IMG/VR virus record: IMGVR_UViG_3300046804_004438
Span: 46,387 to 110,386 of that record
Reading direction: 5' to 3' (one strand)
Length of the DNA stretch: 64,000 bases
DNA from: a virus
The number at the start of each line of letters is the position of its first letter. Within the stretch, counting starts at the first letter, position 1. Shown piece after piece: positions 4,727 to 63,107 of the stretch. Below the pieces are notes generated by a model that saw nothing but the letters and a program-made list of their open reading frames with translations, made no database searches and was not told the DNA's origin. The position numbers were made by a program, and so were the translations under genes.

Positions 4727-5020
4727 GGTGGAGAGATTCTGTTTCCAAGCTCTCTCCGGGCTCATGCTTAAGCAGCAAGTGCTAAGCTAGGTGCAAAGTT
4801 ATCGTTTGCATTTAGTTTTGTTGCATCAGTCTCAGGTCAGCCTTTACTACACCTGTCGATCCTGTTTCGTCCCCATCAAAAGCATATCCCTTGCCACTAT
4901 CTCATCCGCTAGCAGGACTATTGAGACCAACGTCAAGGGTTGGCGGATATGCTTATGGTGGAGACGCCGGGTACCGCCCCCGGGTCCAGAATGTTTATTC
5001 TACTTCCGTCAACGACATCA
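4727..5020 (-). ncRNA. ssrA: Circularly permuted two-piece tmRNA (alphaproteobacterial type)
   Basis: Acceptor piece ends ...CGTCTCCACCA (4956); intervening segment; coding piece starts GGGGACGAAA (4874); tag ORF 4809-4768 encodes ANDNFAPSLALAA-stop; 3' hairpin followed by a T-run. Confidence 0.93.
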
Positions 5021-5026
5021 GCATTA

Positions 5027-5057
5027 TATTTATAGCACATTATATTGTATAAGTCAA
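5027..5057 (-). promoter_or_regulatory. Overlapping sigma70-type (TTGACT-17-TATAAA) and T4 late (TATAAATA) promoters for tmRNA
   Basis: Minus strand reads TTGACTtatacaatataatgtgcTATAAATA just upstream of the tmRNA. Confidence 0.7.
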
Positions 5058-5091
5058 CAGTTTTTAAATTGATTATACAATACATTGTATG

Positions 5092-21510: not shown

Positions 21511-22875
21511 TCAGGGTCTTCCTAATGATAAAAATTTATCTTGTTTTGTTTTCTTGTAGTCGTTAAGTTTATCCAGATATCCAGCATTACGGAGATCTTT
21601 GAAAATAAGATTACCAAATGCAAACTCACCTTCTTTGGCAATAGAATCACCACGCATCTTTTTAATCTTGTCTTTTAGAATGTCAATTGTATCATCACTG
21701 GAATTATCTGTGATTAGCTTATCAATCATATCCTTGTAGAACTGTACCTTCTTTTGTAGATGATAATCATCTTCAAAATTTAGATCTAACATCTGAGGAC
21801 GAGCAATCCATCTGTTCTGAATTAAGGAATACACACCCTGATTTGCATGAGGCTTTTCATCTATATCCTGAGCATATAGTTCTACAGGATATCCGTAGAT
21901 TGAAATATTTGGATGTTGTAGAGTCCAAAGAATCTTCTTATCTTGCAGATACTCATCAACAAATGCTCTGTCAGGATTGATTGATGCTCTTGACATAACT
22001 ATATGAAGATCTATATCAGAGTTAGGTGTATAGTTGTAGTTTACATTACCACCAGTGATTACTACATCATATATTAAATCAGGGGATATCTTTGCAAATG
22101 CTACCCATGCATCAGCAATTTGTATCAACTTGTCTTTTACATCCTGCTTCAATTCACCTACCGTATCCCAGATCTTTGGATTCAATTGTTTGTGGTATTG
22201 AAGTGTAGTTTCTTCTAAAAGACTTTCTGCTACCTTATTTTGTACTGTAACAATTTCTGTAGAAGATTTATTATTCTTTTTTGTCTGAACACCAACAGTA
22301 TTCTGAGAACCCTGCATAATCTGTTCAGATTGTGTCATAGCTTTTGCTCGTCTTAGCTGAACAAGAAATGGTTGTAGACTCTGTGATGATTTTTTCTGAT
22401 GTTTTTTCTGAGCAGCAATAGACACACCAGGCTCTCCTTTATATGATCCAGGAGGCTGACCAAGCCCTGCTATATCTCCAGAACCTGCACTATTGATAGC
22501 AGCAGTGCCGTCTTCGTTGAGTTCTACTAACTGATCGTATATCTCGTTAAATTGTTGTTCTACAAATAATTGTAGCTGTTCGTCTGTCACATCTTCTCTG
22601 ATAGGAGTAGATCTTAGAAGGAACATTGCAGCAGCAATCGTACCTAATCTTGAAGCACCACCAGGAATTTTTGAAATTAGTTTTTTCAAATTGATTACCA
22701 TTACATCAAATAAACCAAGAATTCTGGTTTCTTGAGGAGTAAATCTGCTACGAGGTTTTAGGAAATTACCTTTGTCATCAATGAGATTGTATGTATACGC
22801 AGGCATCTTATTAAAAGGTGTTGTAAGTTTTTTAATAAACTGGTATGCTAATACAGTATCAACAACGCCTGCCAT
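21511..22875 (-). CDS. Late protein with C-terminal Pol-beta-family nucleotidyltransferase domain
   Basis: TGGN.NYNY...SDIDLH and VELYAQD motifs; late promoter at 22930. Confidence 0.65.
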   Translation of the reverse strand: MAGVVDTVLAYQFIKKLTTPFNKMPAYTYNLIDDKGNFLKPRSRFTPQETRILGLFDVMVINLKKLISKIPGGASRLGTIAAAMFLLRSTPIREDVTDEQLQLFVEQQFNEIYDQLVELNEDGTAAINSAGSGDIAGLGQPPGSYKGEPGVSIAAQKKHQKKSSQSLQPFLVQLRRAKAMTQSEQIMQGSQNTVGVQTKKNNKSSTEIVTVQNKVAESLLEETTLQYHKQLNPKIWDTVGELKQDVKDKLIQIADAWVAFAKISPDLIYDVVITGGNVNYNYTPNSDIDLHIVMSRASINPDRAFVDEYLQDKKILWTLQHPNISIYGYPVELYAQDIDEKPHANQGVYSLIQNRWIARPQMLDLNFEDDYHLQKKVQFYKDMIDKLITDNSSDDTIDILKDKIKKMRGDSIAKEGEFAFGNLIFKDLRNAGYLDKLNDYKKTKQDKFLSLGRP

Positions 22876-22876
22876 T

Positions 22877-23275
22877 TTAGATTTTCCTAAGTTCTTCTAG
22901 TATTTTTTCGTCGTGGGAAATTTCTTTAGTATTTATAGTTCTGTTTTCTATGCCAACATTCTCTACTTTTTCAGGAAGAACATTCAAAAATAGCAGAAAA
23001 GATTTAATCTGTGATTCTAGACCTTTGCATTTTAAAAACAACATCTTCACTGTTGCATGAGGTCCAAATACGTTATTGAGAATTATAATATGATTAAGAA
23101 TTAGACGTTCTTTGAGGTCACCCTCTTCTATGTAACGATTTAACAATCTCTTTATATATTTTAGTCTTTTGAGATCATCATAAAATTCTACAGTATCATA
23201 ACACTGTGGATTATCATAATGTTTGGCTGCATATAAAAGAAAATTAAATTCGTCTAATTTATCCATTTTTAACAA
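22877..23275 (-). CDS. Conserved T4-like phage protein
   Basis: YA.KHYDNPQC...EFYDDLKR.KYIKRL and ERLILNHII. Confidence 0.7.
   Translation of the reverse strand: MLKMDKLDEFNFLLYAAKHYDNPQCYDTVEFYDDLKRLKYIKRLLNRYIEEGDLKERLILNHIIILNNVFGPHATVKMLFLKCKGLESQIKSFLLFLNVLPEKVENVGIENRTINTKEISHDEKILEELRKI
22930..22937 (-). promoter_or_regulatory. T4-type late promoter
   Basis: TATAAATA upstream of the 22875 start. Confidence 0.6.
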
Positions 23276-58111: not shown

Positions 58112-58185
58112 TGGAGCGGGTAACCAGACTCGAACTGGTTTCTACAGCTTGGAAGGCTGGGGCACAACCCATATACCATACCCGC
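58112..58185 (-). tRNA. tRNA-Gly(TCC)
   Basis: Cloverleaf, loop CTTCCAA, TCCA end. Confidence 0.92.
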
Positions 58186-58193
58186 AAATCTCC

Positions 58194-58670
58194 TTACGCA
58201 GCCAGAATCTCTTTGAGACGATCAGCTGCGTAAGACGCTGCAAAAGCGTTTGGCTTAACAAGAGGTACGACATTACACATACCTCTGATATAGCCAGTTG
58301 CTTCTTGGATCACACATGAAGACCCATGATGTTCATCAGGGTTAATGTCAAGATGTACTTCTACATCTCTATCTTCAAGTATGTCGTGCAGCTTCGTATA
58401 AAGTTCTGCAATCTTGTAAACTTCTGTCATAAGACGCATACGAGGTCTATCTCTTTGTTGATCAAAGTCTCTTTCACGCTGGATTTCACCAAAGATCTTA
58501 CAACCTCTGTTACCATCTTTATGAACAACAACACAAAGAGTATAATCAGCAAACCACACACCATCTATCATAAAGCGCTCAGAGTCACCACCAATATAAA
58601 TCTTTGTCTGTGGTGATTGTGCATTGATATAGTTAGCTACTTCTTCTATATTCATTTCTTTACGTAGCAT
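58194..58670 (-). CDS. RNase H-like YkuK/DUF458 family protein
   Basis: IYIGGDS, RLM.EV, VHLDIN, KP.A.AAS.AAD motifs. Confidence 0.85.
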   Translation of the reverse strand: MLRKEMNIEEVANYINAQSPQTKIYIGGDSERFMIDGVWFADYTLCVVVHKDGNRGCKIFGEIQRERDFDQQRDRPRMRLMTEVYKIAELYTKLHDILEDRDVEVHLDINPDEHHGSSCVIQEATGYIRGMCNVVPLVKPNAFAASYAADRLKEILAA

Positions 58671-59985: not shown

Positions 59986-61404
59986 TTAGTAATCGTAGCG
60001 ATCGCTCATGATTGTCTTCAACATGATTGCTTCTGGTGTGAATGATGACAAGTCAGCAGACAACACAGACTTAACAATCGCTGGTGAGAAACCAGATACA
60101 AGAGCAACACCACGTTCGTCAAACTTAGCAGGAACGTTGTCGTGTGCATTTAGATTCCAGAACACAATGTTTGGCATTGCATAACCAGCTTCTGCATACT
60201 TACGTGCAATCATTTCCATTGCAGAGTTATCATATCTGACACAAGCATCGAACTGCATGTCTGACAAGATCAGAAGGTTCTGTGGCATTTCTTCCTGAGG
60301 AACATTACCGTTAACTGCAACATCCAGGATCTTCTGAATTGCTAAATGAAGGTTAGTATTCATCTCCCAATCAGAAGACTTCATCTGATTAACCTTATCA
60401 ACAATGTTACCCTTGAGGTTAACAAGTTGTGGCTTTGCAGAGAAGGTCAAGAAAGTATCCTTGAACTTACCCTTGTTCTTGTCTGCAAGATACAGACCAA
60501 GAGATACTGCAACATCAAGATGAGACAGATCGCTGTTCTTGCTCACACGTGAGGTCATAGAACCTGACACGTCAACAAGAGGAAGGATAGAACCATCACC
60601 AACATAGTTAGGAAGTGCATCCCACTGTGCAATGATATGATTCTTGTTCTCTACTGAGTAACCACGATAGTCGTTAAGACCCTTGATAACATCATAAGGA
60701 TATACTGCACCAGCATTAACCTTGACAGTAGATGATACAGAAAGGTCCTTAGAAACAAGAGCAGTTACCCACTCCTTATACTTGTCAGTATGACGAGCAA
60801 ATGCCTTCTTGTAACGAGCTGATGCAACAGATGGTACGTGATTGAAATTGATGTTATCCCAATCCTTTGCACACATCTGAGTCTCAACAACCTGTGTTAA
60901 CTCAACCAGACGCTTACGGTAGTACTTTGGAGACCAACCACAATGTGCACGAAGCTTTGCAGCTACTTCACCCTGACGAGGCATCCACTTAGCACAGAGA
61001 CCATTACCGGCATCAAGTGCTTCGTGAATCATTTTAAATGCTTCATCCTGAAGGCTAGTACCAACAAGAGCTAATAAATCATCCCAACGACCAAGCTCAG
61101 GAACCTTTGTCATCAACGCACGAGCGCGAGATTCGTCAGTGTTAGCAAGATCAACGAGAATATCACGAAAGATCTTACGCTCACCCGCACCACCACGAAC
61201 ATCACGTGCCCAAAGTGCAACACGACCGGCAAGGTCAGCATCGACAATACGAGCAGCAGTCCATTCAGGGATTACGTTCTTACCACGCATCGCACCGATC
61301 TTGAAGAACAAGTCAGTAAGAGCATTACCAGTACCAGAACGAGCCTTCATACCATTCTCTGTACGAGCTTCCTGGTTAATCACAGCGTTAACAAAAGTAG
61401 ACAT
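59986..61404 (-). CDS. Ro60-like TROVE + vWA protein (DUF2828 type)
   Basis: RD.RGG.GER, GRWDDL and AKW.PR in the helical part; MIDAS DVSGSM, SDMQFD, FWNL and SGFSP in the vWA part. Confidence 0.85.
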   Translation of the reverse strand: MSTFVNAVINQEARTENGMKARSGTGNALTDLFFKIGAMRGKNVIPEWTAARIVDADLAGRVALWARDVRGGAGERKIFRDILVDLANTDESRARALMTKVPELGRWDDLLALVGTSLQDEAFKMIHEALDAGNGLCAKWMPRQGEVAAKLRAHCGWSPKYYRKRLVELTQVVETQMCAKDWDNINFNHVPSVASARYKKAFARHTDKYKEWVTALVSKDLSVSSTVKVNAGAVYPYDVIKGLNDYRGYSVENKNHIIAQWDALPNYVGDGSILPLVDVSGSMTSRVSKNSDLSHLDVAVSLGLYLADKNKGKFKDTFLTFSAKPQLVNLKGNIVDKVNQMKSSDWEMNTNLHLAIQKILDVAVNGNVPQEEMPQNLLILSDMQFDACVRYDNSAMEMIARKYAEAGYAMPNIVFWNLNAHDNVPAKFDERGVALVSGFSPAIVKSVLSADLSSFTPEAIMLKTIMSDRYDY

Positions 61405-61420
61405 TTCACTTCTCCATTAT

Positions 61421-61853
61421 TCTACAGATTGAACTTTTTTTGCTATTTCAAAAGCTTTAGGTTGCGGTAGTCAATCTAAATTCAACAGGATCATCTTTTG
61501 TGCTATTAGCAAGCATTTTTAATAGTTGCTGAACTGATCCTTAATTACTCATATTATTATATTACTGTATCTTTGATATTAAATCAACAGGATCCGCTTT
61601 CTGCTTTTTCCCAAAAAAAGTGCCTAAAAGGCGAGAGTTGCTGTTGGGATCCTTAAACTAAATTACTACAGGATAGTTGTTAGAGTTTTTTTAATTATCG
61701 TCTAGATCACGTAATTCTAACAACTAGACTATCTATGTTACAACCACATAACAGGTTGACGAATTATTAGTTCGCCGAGGAGAGTCGACAAGCGACTCGT
61801 TGGTGAGGCATGAAGCCCCTGGCTTTATTAAAGCGTATGCAGTAACTATCCTT
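61421..61853 (-). ncRNA. Array of four related stem-closed small-RNA units
   Basis: Each unit starts AG(G)ATnnnnnC(A/C/T)GCA and ends with the complementary ...AT(C)CTGT; stems differ between units but stay paired. Confidence 0.7.
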
Positions 61854-61858
61854 AAACT

Positions 61859-61935
61859 TGGTGGGTGATGAGAGACTCGAACTCCCGACATTCTGCGTGT
61901 AAAGCAGACGCTACTACCAACTGAGCTAATCACCC
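61859..61935 (-). tRNA. tRNA-Val(TAC)
   Basis: Cloverleaf, loop TTTACAC, CCA encoded. Confidence 0.95.
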
Positions 61936-62627: not shown

Positions 62628-62703
62628 TGGCACCGGTGGTAGGAATCGAACCCACGCTTACAGAGTTTTGGAGACTCCAGCTCTACCCCTGAGCTACACC
62701 GAT
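62628..62703 (-). tRNA. tRNA-Trp(CCA)
   Basis: Cloverleaf, loop CTCCAAA, GCCA end. Confidence 0.92.
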
Positions 62704-63107
62704 AATCTATTATTATAATGTAACTTTCTATGACAATTGGAACATAGAACGATACATTTAGATATTTCCTTAAGTACTATTTCTCTAGATACTCTATTAG
62801 AAATTAATCCAGAAACTTCTAAATCCTTTTGATTGGGATCTTTGTGATGAAAATCTAAAACTGCTATATGACTTTCATCACATTGTTCGCACTTAAGTGA
62901 ACTCTTTATCTCATAGAACCAATCTAGATATATTTTTCTGTATTTTTTAGATGAATTTATATAATCTTGTTTGTTTTGTAAATAATGTTTTTTATTCTTT
63001 AATTTGTGACATTCTTTACAATACCTTTCAAGTCCATCTTTATTAGAAGATTTTTTATTAAACATTGTAATATCTTTTAATTGTTTACATTTACTACAAG
63101 TTTTCAT
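62694..63107 (-). CDS. Zinc-finger HNH homing endonuclease
   Basis: CSKC/CKEC, C..C, DFHH.DP and LCSNCHR motifs; TATAAATA at 63128. Confidence 0.85.
   Translation of the reverse strand: MKTCSKCKQLKDITMFNKKSSNKDGLERYCKECHKLKNKKHYLQNKQDYINSSKKYRKIYLDWFYEIKSSLKCEQCDESHIAVLDFHHKDPNQKDLEVSGLISNRVSREIVLKEISKCIVLCSNCHRKLHYNNRLSV

What the first reader, a model, noticed from the sequence alone, without database searches (positions are those of the whole stretch)
61440..61780. Array payloads resemble tRNA anticodon loops (possible decoys)
Seen: unit 2 holds a clean 5-bp stem and 7-nt loop, CTTTT-TTTGGGA-AAAAG, matching the tRNA-Pro(UGG) anticodon loop. Unit 3 holds TTGCTAA, identical to the loop of this phage's tRNA-Ser(GCT). 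Unit 4 holds TTTGAAA (Ser UGA-like). In units 3 and 4 the heptamer is followed by TAGCA and the stems are imperfect. Unit 1 has several hairpins, one with loop CTAATAA. Inference: protein-stabilised anticodon mimics could titrate host anticodon nucleases (PrrC, RloC, VapC, PARIS types) or tRNA-modifying enzymes.
Basis: inference. Interest (0 to 1): 0.75.

Follow-up and report, generated by a model that had tools for sequence, protein, structure and literature searches.

The report
Anticodon-like loops on Ro60-partner RNAs
Four small RNA genes in front of a phage gene for a Ro60-shaped protein share one conserved "handle"; in this phage one, perhaps two, of them display a look-alike of a tRNA anticodon arm, a feature far above chance across related phages, so they are probably partner RNAs of that protein that imitate tRNA parts, while their use as decoys is untested.

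Summary
The array is real. It has four minus-strand units (61855-61422) between tRNA-Val and a 472-aa gene whose model folds like Ro60. Each unit is a covarying terminal stem plus C(A/C/U)GCA(A/U), ending in CUGU.

The anticodon claim holds only in part in this window. U2 has a 5-bp stem and the loop UUUGGGA, the usual tRNA-Pro(UGG) loop of related phages. U1 has a 6-bp stem with CUAAUAA. U3's conserved fold puts G, not U, at loop position 2. U4's stem is eroded.

Non-T-loop YUNNNRN heptaloops number 63 against 12±4 in shuffles. CUNNNAA loops number 36 against 1.1, and 1 on the reverse complement. Stems covary and the middle three letters change.

Other units carry T and D arms, as in YrlA. 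The best reading is Y-RNA-like partner RNAs of a DUF2828-type Ro60-like protein that present tRNA parts. Decoy action on anticodon nucleases is possible but untested. A homologue, Bas63 gp130, is reported to counter the Ppl defence system.

This scan has already found the family on many other genomes. I found no publication or Rfam family describing it.

The parts
61859..61935 (-). tRNA-Val(UAC). Its encoded CCA end lies 3-4 nt before the first unit, which suggests the array is co-transcribed with the tRNA cluster.
   Evidence: ARAGORN; Rfam tRNA 62.5 bits; sequence.
61669..61852 (-). Unit 1, 184 nt. Handle AGGAUAGUU...CUGCAU / AACUAUCCUG, followed by UAG to 61666. The payload has about six hairpins. 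No homologue among the 80 related loci.
   Evidence: Pattern finder; constrained fold; blastn finds no match for array positions 1-193.
61758..61776 (-). Anticodon-arm look-alike in unit 1: 6-bp stem GGCGAA/UUCGUC with 7-nt loop CUAAUAA.
   Evidence: Free MFE fold; direct scan; coordinates.
61588..61653 (-). Unit 2, 66 nt. Handle AGGAUCC...CAGCAA / GGAUCCUG. The payload is a small hairpin (61632-61622) plus the U-rich hairpin.
   Evidence: Model R1, built without window sequences: 36.0 bits, E 3.5e-6. Orthologues in L001, L003, L004 and L006 by blastn; L013 and L038 carry look-alike units by eye.
61604..61620 (-). Anticodon-arm look-alike in unit 2: CUUUU-UUUGGGA-AAAAG. The loop is identical to the tRNA-Pro(UGG) loop of related phages.
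   Evidence: Orthologues keep UGG, but in loops of 5-7 nt.
61486..61541 (-). Unit 3, 56 nt. Handle AGGAUCA...CAGCAA / UGAUCCUG. The payload hairpin is UGCU-[UGCUAAU]-AGCA (61515-61501), not an anticodon-type loop.
   Evidence: R1 55.5 bits, E 8e-11; orthologous hairpins; coordinates.
61425..61477 (-). Unit 4, the leader unit, 53 nt. Handle AGAUUGA...CCGCAA / UCAAUCUG. The payload GCU-UUUGAAAU-AGC (61455-61442) is an eroded version of the CUUGAAA hairpin of its orthologues. It ends 9 nt before the GGAG (61415-61412) of the Ro60-like gene.
   Evidence: R1 51.6 bits, E 6.5e-10; orthologues; in 60 of 69 loci a unit ends within 45 nt of the start codon.
59986..61404 (-). Ro60-like protein gene, 472 aa: DUF2828 + DUF7788, PHROG 850 'RNA-binding protein'.
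   Evidence: Pfam; PHROGs E 1.4e-140; AF2 model pLDDT 75.5; the 13 best Foldseek PDB hits are all Ro60/TROVE, E 4e-9 to 1e-4; 37% identical to Bas63 gp130.

Best explanation
The four units are Y-RNA-like partner RNAs of the phage's Ro60-like (DUF2828-type) protein.

Each unit has two parts. The first is a conserved handle: 5' (U/A)AG, a covarying 5-7 bp stem, three or so bases, then C(A/C/U)GCA(A/U), and at the 3' end the complementary strand followed by CUGU. The second part is a variable payload.

In this RNA family the payloads are built from tRNA parts:
- short units carry a lone anticodon-arm look-alike;
- longer units carry T, acceptor-like and D arms in the YrlA layout, often with an anticodon arm as well;
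- some are whole tRNA bodies with the handle in place of the acceptor stem.

This phage has one exact anticodon-arm copy (U2, Pro-UGG loop) and one canonical but unnatural one (U1, CUAAUAA). Its other two hairpins are not canonical: U3 belongs to a different conserved heptaloop class, and U4 is an eroded Ser-UGA type.

Inferred mechanism: the array is transcribed with the tRNA cluster and cut into units. The handle docks on the Ro60-like ring. The payload offers tRNA-like surfaces to proteins that bind tRNA, such as host nucleases, modification enzymes or repair enzymes. The particle would thereby bait, block or recruit them during infection. The last unit lies in the 5' UTR of the protein gene and may also let the protein control its own synthesis.

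Shown here: the units, the handle covariation, synteny with the gene, the Ro60 fold of the model, and the excess of anticodon-type loops. Inferred: protein-RNA binding, processing, and any target.
For: Units and handle:
- The motif-plus-stem pattern occurs 226 times on the gene strand and 12 times on the other strand of 80 related loci.
- 65 of 69 loci have a unit within 500 nt upstream of the gene, against 2 of 77 downstream.
- Four of the seven handle pairs show changes on both sides, in 59 cells against 18 in shuffles.
- A covariance model built only from other phages finds U3, U4 and U2 at 55.5, 51.6 and 36.0 bits. The next best hit in 64 kb scores 12 bits.

Protein:
- The best Foldseek hits are all Ro60/TROVE, including phage phiLo Ro60 and Xenopus and Deinococcus Ro.
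- phiLo Ro60 binds two Y-like RNAs encoded upstream of its gene (PMC12135203).

Payload:
- 7-nt loops number 103 against 19±4 in shuffles.
- Non-T-loop YUNNNRN loops number 63 against 12.1±3.6.
- CUNNNAA loops number 36 against 1.1±1.1, and 36 against 1 on the reverse complement.
- The 45 distinct hairpins have 30 different stems. Loop positions 32, 33, 37 and 38 are nearly fixed while 34-36 vary, and the same stem carries different triplets.
- The loops equal real tRNA loops of these phages: CUUGUAA, CUUGAAA, CUUCUAA, CUCAUAA, UUUGGGA.
- The Rfam YrlA model matches the T/acceptor/D core of a relative's unit at 38 bits, E 5e-7.

Function: the homologue Bas63 gp130 (37% identity) sits beside four handle units. 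It is reported to counter the Ppl defence system (10.1101/2024.10.10.617714).
Against: - No expression, processing or binding data exist for this phage.
- In this window only two of the four payload hairpins are canonical. U2's register is ambiguous, and its orthologues have 5-7 nt loops that keep only UGG.
- The units used for the covariation count were selected with a pairing requirement, so the percentage paired is circular. Related sequences are not independent, so the enrichment counts overstate the number of events.
- Pfam TROVE is not hit, and sequence searches of the PDB find nothing. The Ro60 assignment rests on a model of moderate confidence.
- The Bas63 units themselves do not show canonical anticodon loops. 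The mechanism of Ppl is unknown.
Confidence: 0.62

Rival explanations
1. Decoy proper. The anticodon-arm units, held by the protein, act as competitive substrates or inhibitors. They soak up host anticodon nucleases (PrrC, RloC, VapC, colicin-like, PARIS AriB, Cas13-type) or tRNA-modifying enzymes and so spare real tRNAs.
For: - The loops copy real tRNA loops, and the triplet changes between related phages on the same stem. That is expected if specificity tracks the target tRNA of a host enzyme.
- Mimic anticodons are enriched for U36, the ANN-reading tRNAs: 27 of 45 against 160 of 538, p 8e-5.
- A homologous protein counters a defence system.
- tRNA-cutting defences and phage tRNA counter-measures are established (PMC11464382, PMC12409363, listed).
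Against: - There is no assay of any kind.
- Mimic stems are AU-rich and unlike tRNA stems; none of 57 is identical to a tRNA arm.
- Many nucleases need more of the tRNA than the arm.
- Mimic anticodons are unrelated to the tRNAs carried in the same locus (15 observed, 15.3 expected).
- The one defence countered by a homologue (Ppl) is not known to cut tRNA.
- Two of the four units here are not anticodon-like.
Confidence: 0.22
2. Cis-acting leader and processing elements. The units are mainly structures of a long tRNA-mRNA precursor. The handles would be processing or stability signals, and the last unit an operator through which the Ro60-like protein represses its own translation. On this view the payload loops have no target of their own.
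For: - In 60 of 69 loci a unit ends within 45 nt of the start codon. In the window it ends 9 nt before GGAG.
- Units follow tRNA-Val directly and are joined by U-rich linkers of about 9 nt.
Against: - Units also lie far from the gene among tRNA genes, for example in L020, L033 and Bas63.
- Some relatives have their own promoter-like TTGACA-N17-TACAAT just upstream of a unit.
- A pure processing signal does not explain the excess of tRNA-type loops or the T and D arms.
Confidence: 0.12
3. For this window only: the anticodon resemblance of U1-U4 is coincidental. The payloads are fast-evolving spacers whose exact loops do not matter.
For: - U1 has no homologue.
- U2 orthologues shift loop size.
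- U3 and U4 fail the canonical test.
- About 0.3 canonical hairpins are expected by chance in these payloads, against 2 seen.
Against: - The U2 loop equals the tRNA-Pro loop exactly.
- U4 orthologues carry CUUGAAA on three different stems.
- The family-level excess is 30-fold for CUNNNAA.
Confidence: 0.1
4. The U2-type loop is a CCA-end binder rather than a Pro anticodon mimic. The conserved UGG would pair with the 3' CCA of tRNAs, as in the T-box discriminator.
For: Orthologues keep UGG while the loop register shifts: UUUGGGA, AUUGGA, UAUGGA, AUUUGGG.
Against: - This rests on five related sequences only.
- The window's loop is an exact tRNA-Pro loop.
- No other support was found.
Confidence: 0.04

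Closest known systems
Ro60 (Rsr) with Y RNAs, especially the tRNA-mimicking YrlA of bacteria and phages (Rfam RF02553; Chen et al. 2014, PMC4201824) and Thermus phage phiLo Ro60 with Yrl1/Yrl2 (PMC12135203)
   Same: A ring-plus-vWA protein with small RNAs encoded beside its gene. In phiLo the RNAs also lie upstream. Each RNA has a terminal stem with a conserved motif in an adjacent internal loop, plus a second module. In relatives of this phage the second module has the YrlA layout of T arm, acceptor-like hairpin and D arm.
   Different: The protein hits Pfam DUF2828/DUF7788, not TROVE. The handle motif is C(A/C/U)GCA(A/U), not GNCGAA or CGAA. No Rfam Y-RNA model reaches threshold, and none matches in the window. 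The RNAs come as tandem arrays of up to five or six units. Many units carry only an anticodon-arm look-alike, the tRNA part that YrlA lacks.
Bas63 (Felixounavirus) gp130, a Ro60-like protein that counters the Ppl defence system (PhageMaP preprint 10.1101/2024.10.10.617714)
   Same: Homologous protein: 37% identity over 458 residues, E 3e-94. It lies next to the tRNA cluster, which contains four units with the same handle grammar.
   Different: In Bas63 the units lie downstream of the gene among the tRNAs, and their small hairpins are not canonical anticodon loops. The authors only guessed that some 'tRNA genes' might be Y RNAs. No mechanism is known.
Class I RNAs of Dictyostelia (Rfam RF01414; Kjellin et al. 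2021, PMC7919456)
   Same: The grammar matches: 42-65 nt, a 6-bp terminal stem conserved in structure but not sequence, start AAG, end CUGU, a conserved motif ending in CAGCAA next to the 5' strand, and a variable remainder. All dictyostelid groups encode a DUF2828 protein of about 500 aa.
   Different: Rfam scores are far below threshold: 14.8 bits for U4 and 21.8 bits for a relative's unit, against a gathering score of 41.5. The D. discoideum DUF2828 protein is DDB_G0281913. It is not DDB_G0281243, the unknown protein pulled down with DdR-21. Class I RNAs are separate eukaryotic genes, each with a DUSE promoter element. This is a resemblance, not shown homology.
tRNA anticodon stem-loop, and mRNA operators that imitate it (E. 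coli thrS leader; from my own knowledge, not checked here)
   Same: A 5-bp stem, a 7-nt loop with U33 and a purine at 37, placed just upstream of a ribosome-binding site in the leader units.
   Different: The neighbouring gene is not an aminoacyl-tRNA synthetase. The arms sit on a shared handle, and most are not next to an RBS.

Membership tests
Handle RNAs of DUF2828-type phage Ro60-like proteins (apparently undescribed; seen repeatedly in this scan) | Terminal stem with (U/A)AG at the 5' end and CUGU at the 3' end, plus C-N-GCA-(A/U) three or so bases after the 5' strand | tested here: met
   All four units. Model R1, built from other phages, gives 55.5, 51.6 and 36.0 bits for U3, U4 and U2. 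U1 is met by pattern only; it is too long for R1.
Handle RNAs of DUF2828-type phage Ro60-like proteins (apparently undescribed; seen repeatedly in this scan) | Same strand as, and next to, a DUF2828/DUF7788 gene or inside the tRNA cluster | tested here: met
   The array lies between tRNA-Val and the gene. Synteny holds in 65 of 69 loci.
Handle RNAs of DUF2828-type phage Ro60-like proteins (apparently undescribed; seen repeatedly in this scan) | Physical binding of the handle to the protein | not testable with these tools
   No RNA-protein prediction or binding data were available.
Y RNA / YrlA (Rfam RF00019, RF02553) | Encoded beside a Ro60 orthologue | tested here: met
   The neighbouring protein's model matches Ro60 structures over its whole length. 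It is not a Pfam TROVE hit.
Y RNA / YrlA (Rfam RF00019, RF02553) | Ro-binding motif GGUCCGA, GNCGAA or CGAA in the stem or bulge; match to the Rfam model | tested here: not met
   The motif here is CAGCAA, CCGCAA or CUGCAU. There is no Y_RNA or YrlA hit in the window even at E up to 10.
Y RNA / YrlA (Rfam RF00019, RF02553) | tRNA-like domain with T and D arms (YrlA) | tested here: not met
   None of the four window units has a T or D arm. Units of relatives do: YrlA 38.4 bits, below the gathering score of 69.
tRNA anticodon arm (mimic) | Stem of 4-6 bp closing a 7-nt loop with pyrimidine 32, U33 and purine 37 | tested here: met
   Met for U2 (61620-61604) and U1 (61776-61758).
tRNA anticodon arm (mimic) | The same test applied to U3 and U4 | tested here: not met
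   U3's conserved register gives the loop UGCUAAU, with G at position 33. U4 has a 3-bp stem and an 8-nt loop.
tRNA anticodon arm (mimic) | Excess over chance across homologous units, with a fixed frame and a variable triplet | tested here: met
   63 against 12.1±3.6; CUNNNAA 36 against 1.1, and against 1 on the reverse complement. Entropy is low at positions 32, 33, 37 and 38 and high at 34-36.
tRNA anticodon arm (mimic) | Recognition by anticodon-binding proteins or tRNA modification enzymes | not testable with these tools
   Needs biochemistry.
Dictyostelium Class I RNA (RF01414) | Score at or above the Rfam gathering threshold (41.5 bits) | tested here: not met
   14.8 bits, E 4.2 for U4; 21.8 bits, E 0.12 for L027.
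Ro60 / TROVE protein family | HEAT-repeat ring plus C-terminal vWA domain | tested here: met
   AF2 model pLDDT 75.5, pTM 0.69. Foldseek TM 0.5-0.58 to 9kop, 9l5y, 1yvr and 2i91.
Ro60 / TROVE protein family | Sequence membership (Pfam TROVE PF05731) | tested here: not met
   Only DUF7788 and DUF2828 are hit. No PDB sequence match, even with a profile.

The most novel reading that the evidence does not exclude
Hundreds of phages carry a Ro60-like particle whose interchangeable RNA subunits display bare tRNA anticodon arms, with the anticodon swapped from phage to phage, to bait or disarm host proteins that read anticodons, chiefly tRNA-cutting defence enzymes. The same handle grammar in Dictyostelium Class I RNAs would then mean that DUF2828 proteins of eukaryotes also have Y-RNA-like partners.
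Probability: 0.2. Interest if true: 0.85.

Novelty: new variant of a known kind. Interest (0 to 1): 0.6.

Why it matters
Ro60/Y-RNA particles are known from animals to bacteria, but what the tRNA-like part of bacterial Y RNAs is for remains open.

Here a second, sequence-distinct branch of Ro60-like proteins appears in 711 phage records. It comes with arrays of partner RNAs that carry separate tRNA parts, including the anticodon arm that YrlA lacks. That makes the question testable piece by piece: which host protein binds which part.

A homologue already has an anti-defence phenotype in Bas63. The anticodon-arm units are therefore an obvious lead in the contest over tRNA cleavage between bacteria and phages.

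It also matters for annotation. These units are missed or called 'hypothetical protein' in deposited genomes, for example two CDS in Bas63.

Tried and rejected
- Rfam at gathering and at E up to 10: nothing but tRNA in the window region, plus weak chance-level hits.
- PDB sequence searches with the protein and with a 32-sequence profile: no relevant hit.
- Other ATCCTGTWG sites in the window (9 against 1.2 expected) lie in coding sequence without a 5' handle partner. No further units were found in the 110-kb record.
- Tandem-repeat and simple repeat finders see only fragments of the handles.
- Promoter and terminator scan: not informative.
- Neighbouring ORFs: no RNA-repair or nuclease clue. 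They comprise one RNaseH-like ORF, an HNH ORF and several of unknown function.
- Hypothesis that mimic anticodons copy or complement the tRNAs of the same locus: null result, 15 against 15.3.
- Hypothesis that mimic arms are duplicated tRNA arms: 0 of 57 are identical in stem plus loop.
- Hypothesis that DDB_G0281243, pulled down with Class I RNA DdR-21, is the Dictyostelium DUF2828 protein: rejected. The DUF2828 protein is DDB_G0281913.
- Avesson et al. 2011 is not held in the library.
- Literature searches for DUF2828, for Ppl mechanism and for anticodon decoys: no paper describes these RNAs.
- tRNA-pseudogene remnants were rejected, because the handles covary and the units are syntenic across proteins of 55-78% identity.
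Full report
LOCATION AND ANATOMY

The reported stretch lies on the minus strand in a 454-nt gap. The gap runs from tRNA-Val(UAC) (61935-61859) to a 472-aa gene (61404-59986). The window is the last 64 kb of a 110-kb viral record with 12 tRNA genes and a tmRNA.

Read 5' to 3' on the minus strand, the gap holds four units:
- U1: 61852-61669
- U2: 61653-61588
- U3: 61541-61486
- U4: 61477-61425

Each unit opens with (U/A)AG, a 5-7 nt stem strand, three bases and C(A/C/U)GCA(A/U). Each closes with the complementary strand followed by CUGU(U/A)G. U1 starts 3-4 nt after the CCA of tRNA-Val. U4 ends 9 nt before the GGAG of the gene.

ARE THE UNITS REAL?

In 80 related viral loci, fetched through the neighbouring protein, the motif-plus-stem pattern occurs 226 times on the gene strand. 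It occurs 12 times on the opposite strand.

- 65 of 69 loci have at least one unit in the 500 nt upstream of the gene.
- 60 of 69 have a unit ending within 45 nt of the start codon.
- 2 of 77 have one in the 500 nt downstream.

The stem sequences differ (GGAUCG, GGUUAA, GAAUGU, GAUUCA and others) while pairing is kept. Four of the seven pairs show changes on both sides, in 59 cells against 18 in shuffles. One caveat applies: the units were picked with a pairing rule, so only the variety of pairs is informative, not the percentage paired.

A covariance model built from 27 short units of other phages, with no window sequence, finds U3, U4 and U2. They score 55.5, 51.6 and 36.0 bits (E 8e-11 to 3.5e-6). 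The next best hit in the whole window scores 12 bits. U1 is too long for that model and has no homologue among the loci.

THE NEIGHBOURING PROTEIN

The protein hits Pfam DUF7788 and DUF2828 and PHROG 850 'RNA-binding protein' end to end. It has no sequence match in the PDB.

An AlphaFold2 model has pLDDT 75.5. Its 13 best PDB matches by Foldseek are all Ro60/TROVE structures over the full length, with E from 4e-9 to 1e-4. They include Thermus phage phiLo Ro60, Xenopus Ro60 and Deinococcus Rsr.

tblastn finds the family in 711 phage records. These include Felix O1-like, Listeria P100-like, Twort-like, mycobacteriophage ('Ro-like RNA binding protein'), Vibrio, Campylobacter and Lak phages.

Known Ro60 proteins bind Y RNAs encoded next to their genes. 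Bacterial YrlA RNAs mimic tRNA (PMC4201824). phiLo Ro60 binds two Y-like RNAs encoded upstream of its gene (PMC12135203).

THE CLAIM ITSELF: THIS WINDOW

- **U2.** CUUUU-UUUGGGA-AAAAG (61620-61604) is a 5-bp stem with a 7-nt loop. The loop is identical to that of 16 of 20 tRNA-Pro(UGG) genes in the related loci. The seven-U run allows other registers and a rival fold. Orthologous units have loops AUUGGA, UAUGGA and AUUUGGG, so only UGG is constant.
- **U1.** This unit has a 6-bp stem with the loop CUAAUAA (61776-61758). The hairpin is predicted even in the unconstrained fold. No tRNA with anticodon AAU occurs among the 538 tRNAs compared.
- **U3.** TTGCTAA is indeed the loop of the window's tRNA-Ser(GCU), but nothing closes it in that register. 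The hairpin conserved among orthologues is UGCU-[UGCUAAU]-AGCA. Their loops are CGGCAAU, UGCAUAC, CGCAAAA and UGCAUAU on four different stems. This is a conserved heptaloop class, Y-G-C-N-N-A-N, without U33.
- **U4.** UUUGAAA sits on a 3-bp stem with a U.U mismatch. Orthologues have clean stems (UCUUA, UCGA, CUUUU) with CUUGAAA, the loop of every tRNA-Ser(UGA) in the loci.

Taken alone, the window gives two canonical hairpins against about 0.3 expected.

THE CLAIM ITSELF: THE FAMILY

| Measure | Observed | Control |
|---|---|---|
| 7-nt loops in thermodynamic folds | 103 | 19±4 in shuffles |
| T-loops, direct scan | 42 | 0.4 in shuffles |
| Other YUNNNRN loops, direct scan | 63 | 12.1±3.6 in shuffles (max 25 of 300) |
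| CUNNNAA loops, direct scan | 36 | 1.1±1.1 in shuffles (max 5) |
| CUNNNAA loops, sense strand | 36 | 1 on the reverse complement |

The direct scan counts heptaloops closed by at least 4 pairs. The reverse-complement control keeps the stems.

After removing T-loop-like UUUCGAY, 45 distinct hairpins remain, with 30 different stems. Positions 32, 33, 37 and 38 are almost fixed (C/U, U, A/G, A) while positions 34-36 vary. Identical stems carry different triplets. For example, UUCA/UGAA carries GUA, UGU, CAU and GCA.

The heptamers are those of real tRNAs in the same phages, where CUNNNAA is the commonest frame (248 of 538). Thr(UGU), Ser(UGA), Arg(UCU), Ile(UAU), Met(CAU) and Phe(GAA) lead.

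U36 anticodons are over-represented: 27 of 45 against 160 of 538, p 8e-5. There is no relation to the tRNAs encoded in the same locus (15 against 15.3 expected). No mimic arm is a copy of a tRNA arm (0 of 57); mimic stems are AU-rich. Related sequences are not independent, so these numbers overstate the count of separate events.

OTHER PAYLOADS

- Units of about 113-120 nt carry an anticodon-like hairpin, a variable-loop-like linker, a T arm, a closed acceptor-like hairpin and a D arm. That is a circularly permuted tRNA with the handle at the 26/27 junction.
- The Rfam YrlA model matches the T/acceptor/D core of one of these units at 38.4 bits, E 5e-7, below its threshold of 69.
- Units of about 92-102 nt are tRNA bodies in normal order, with the handle in place of the acceptor stem. 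Rfam reports two of them as truncated tRNAs.

The anticodon arm is therefore one of several tRNA parts placed on the same handle.

FUNCTION

Nothing here measures function. The closest published evidence concerns Bas63 gp130. It was described as structurally Ro60-like and as lying next to the tRNA genes. It counters the Ppl defence system, and the authors guessed that some neighbouring 'tRNA genes' might be Y RNAs (10.1101/2024.10.10.617714).

I confirmed that gp130 is a homologue of the window's protein: 37% identity over 458 residues, E 3e-94. The Bas63 tRNA cluster contains four units with the handle grammar. Two of them overlap annotated hypothetical CDS on the other strand. Their small hairpins are not canonical anticodon loops, and the mechanism of Ppl is not known.

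The reading best supported is a Y-RNA-like particle that presents tRNA parts to tRNA-binding proteins. Titration of anticodon nucleases is one attractive special case, at about one chance in five. The leader position of the last unit also suggests autoregulation or co-processing with the mRNA.

DICTYOSTELIUM RESEMBLANCE

Rfam's Class I RNA model gave weak hits: 21.8 bits for a relative's unit and 14.8 bits for U4. The published description of Class I RNAs matches the handle grammar (PMC7919456):
- 42-65 nt long
- a 6-bp terminal stem conserved in structure only
- start AAG and end CUGU
- an 11-nt motif next to the 5' strand

All dictyostelid groups encode a DUF2828 protein of about 500 aa. In D. 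discoideum it is DDB_G0281913. It is not DDB_G0281243, the protein of unknown function pulled down with DdR-21, so that pull-down gives no direct support. This remains a lead.

PRIOR SIGHTINGS AND NOVELTY

The scan's own index shows this protein-handle family, including anticodon-arm units and the decoy idea. It has been reported on at least fifteen other genomes and on this window. My results agree with those notes. In this freshwater clade the leading mimics are Thr, Ser and Arg rather than Lys and Asn.

I found no paper or Rfam family describing these RNAs. Relative to the literature this is a new variant of the Ro60/Y-RNA kind. This window is a modest example of it.

Noticed in passing
window 61501-61515 (-), with L002, L005, L007 and L009 orthologues: U3-type units share a heptaloop class Y-G-C-N-N-A-N (UGCUAAU, CGGCAAU, UGCAUAC, CGCAAAA, UGCAUAU) on four different stems. 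It is conserved in size but lacks U33, so it is a payload type of unknown meaning.
   Followed up: partly
window 61604-61620 (-) and orthologues in L001, L003, L013, L038: U2-type loops keep UGG while the loop length shifts. UGG is also complementary to the tRNA 3' CCA end.
   Followed up: no
L086 (Bas63, MZ501086) 22073-22140, 22240-22298, 22695-22763, 22782-22908: There are four handle units inside the Bas63 tRNA cluster. The last two overlap the annotated 'hypothetical protein' CDS bas63_0137 and bas63_0138 on the opposite strand, which are probably mis-annotations.
   Followed up: partly
related loci, e.g. L034 2598-2689, L042 2379-2478, L048 2648-2749, L028 367-459: These are tRNA bodies (D arm, anticodon arm, T arm in normal order) whose acceptor stem is replaced by the handle. 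Rfam reports two of them as truncated tRNAs.
   Followed up: partly
family level (45 distinct mimic hairpins against 538 tRNAs of the loci): Mimic anticodons are enriched for U36, the ANN-reading t6A37-type tRNAs: 27 of 45 against 160 of 538, Fisher p 8e-5. Sequence relatedness was not corrected for.
   Followed up: partly
P0137 (D. discoideum DDB_G0281913, Q54T94) and P0013, P0029-P0036: Every major dictyostelid group has one DUF2828 protein of about 500 aa. Homologues also occur in Naegleria, Vannella, chytrids, oomycetes and plants. This is relevant to the orphan Class I RNAs.
   Followed up: partly
window 4727-5061 (-): A phage-encoded tmRNA of the alphaproteobacterial, permuted two-piece type (Rfam 137.5 bits). 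It hints at an alphaproteobacterial host.
   Followed up: no
window 62694-63107 (-): An HNH endonuclease-like ORF (PHROG 2255, E 1.6e-33) lies inside the tRNA cluster, next to tRNA-Trp.
   Followed up: no
window 58194-58670 (-): ORF with a Pfam RNaseH_like (PF04308) domain, about 1.3 kb downstream of the Ro60-like gene, beside tRNA-Gly(UCC) (58112-58185).
   Followed up: no
L058, L059, L065 and L068 upstream regions; L014 and L020: Promoter-like TTGACA-N17-TACAAT elements lie a few bases upstream of single units in relatives. This suggests that some units have their own transcription start.
   Followed up: no
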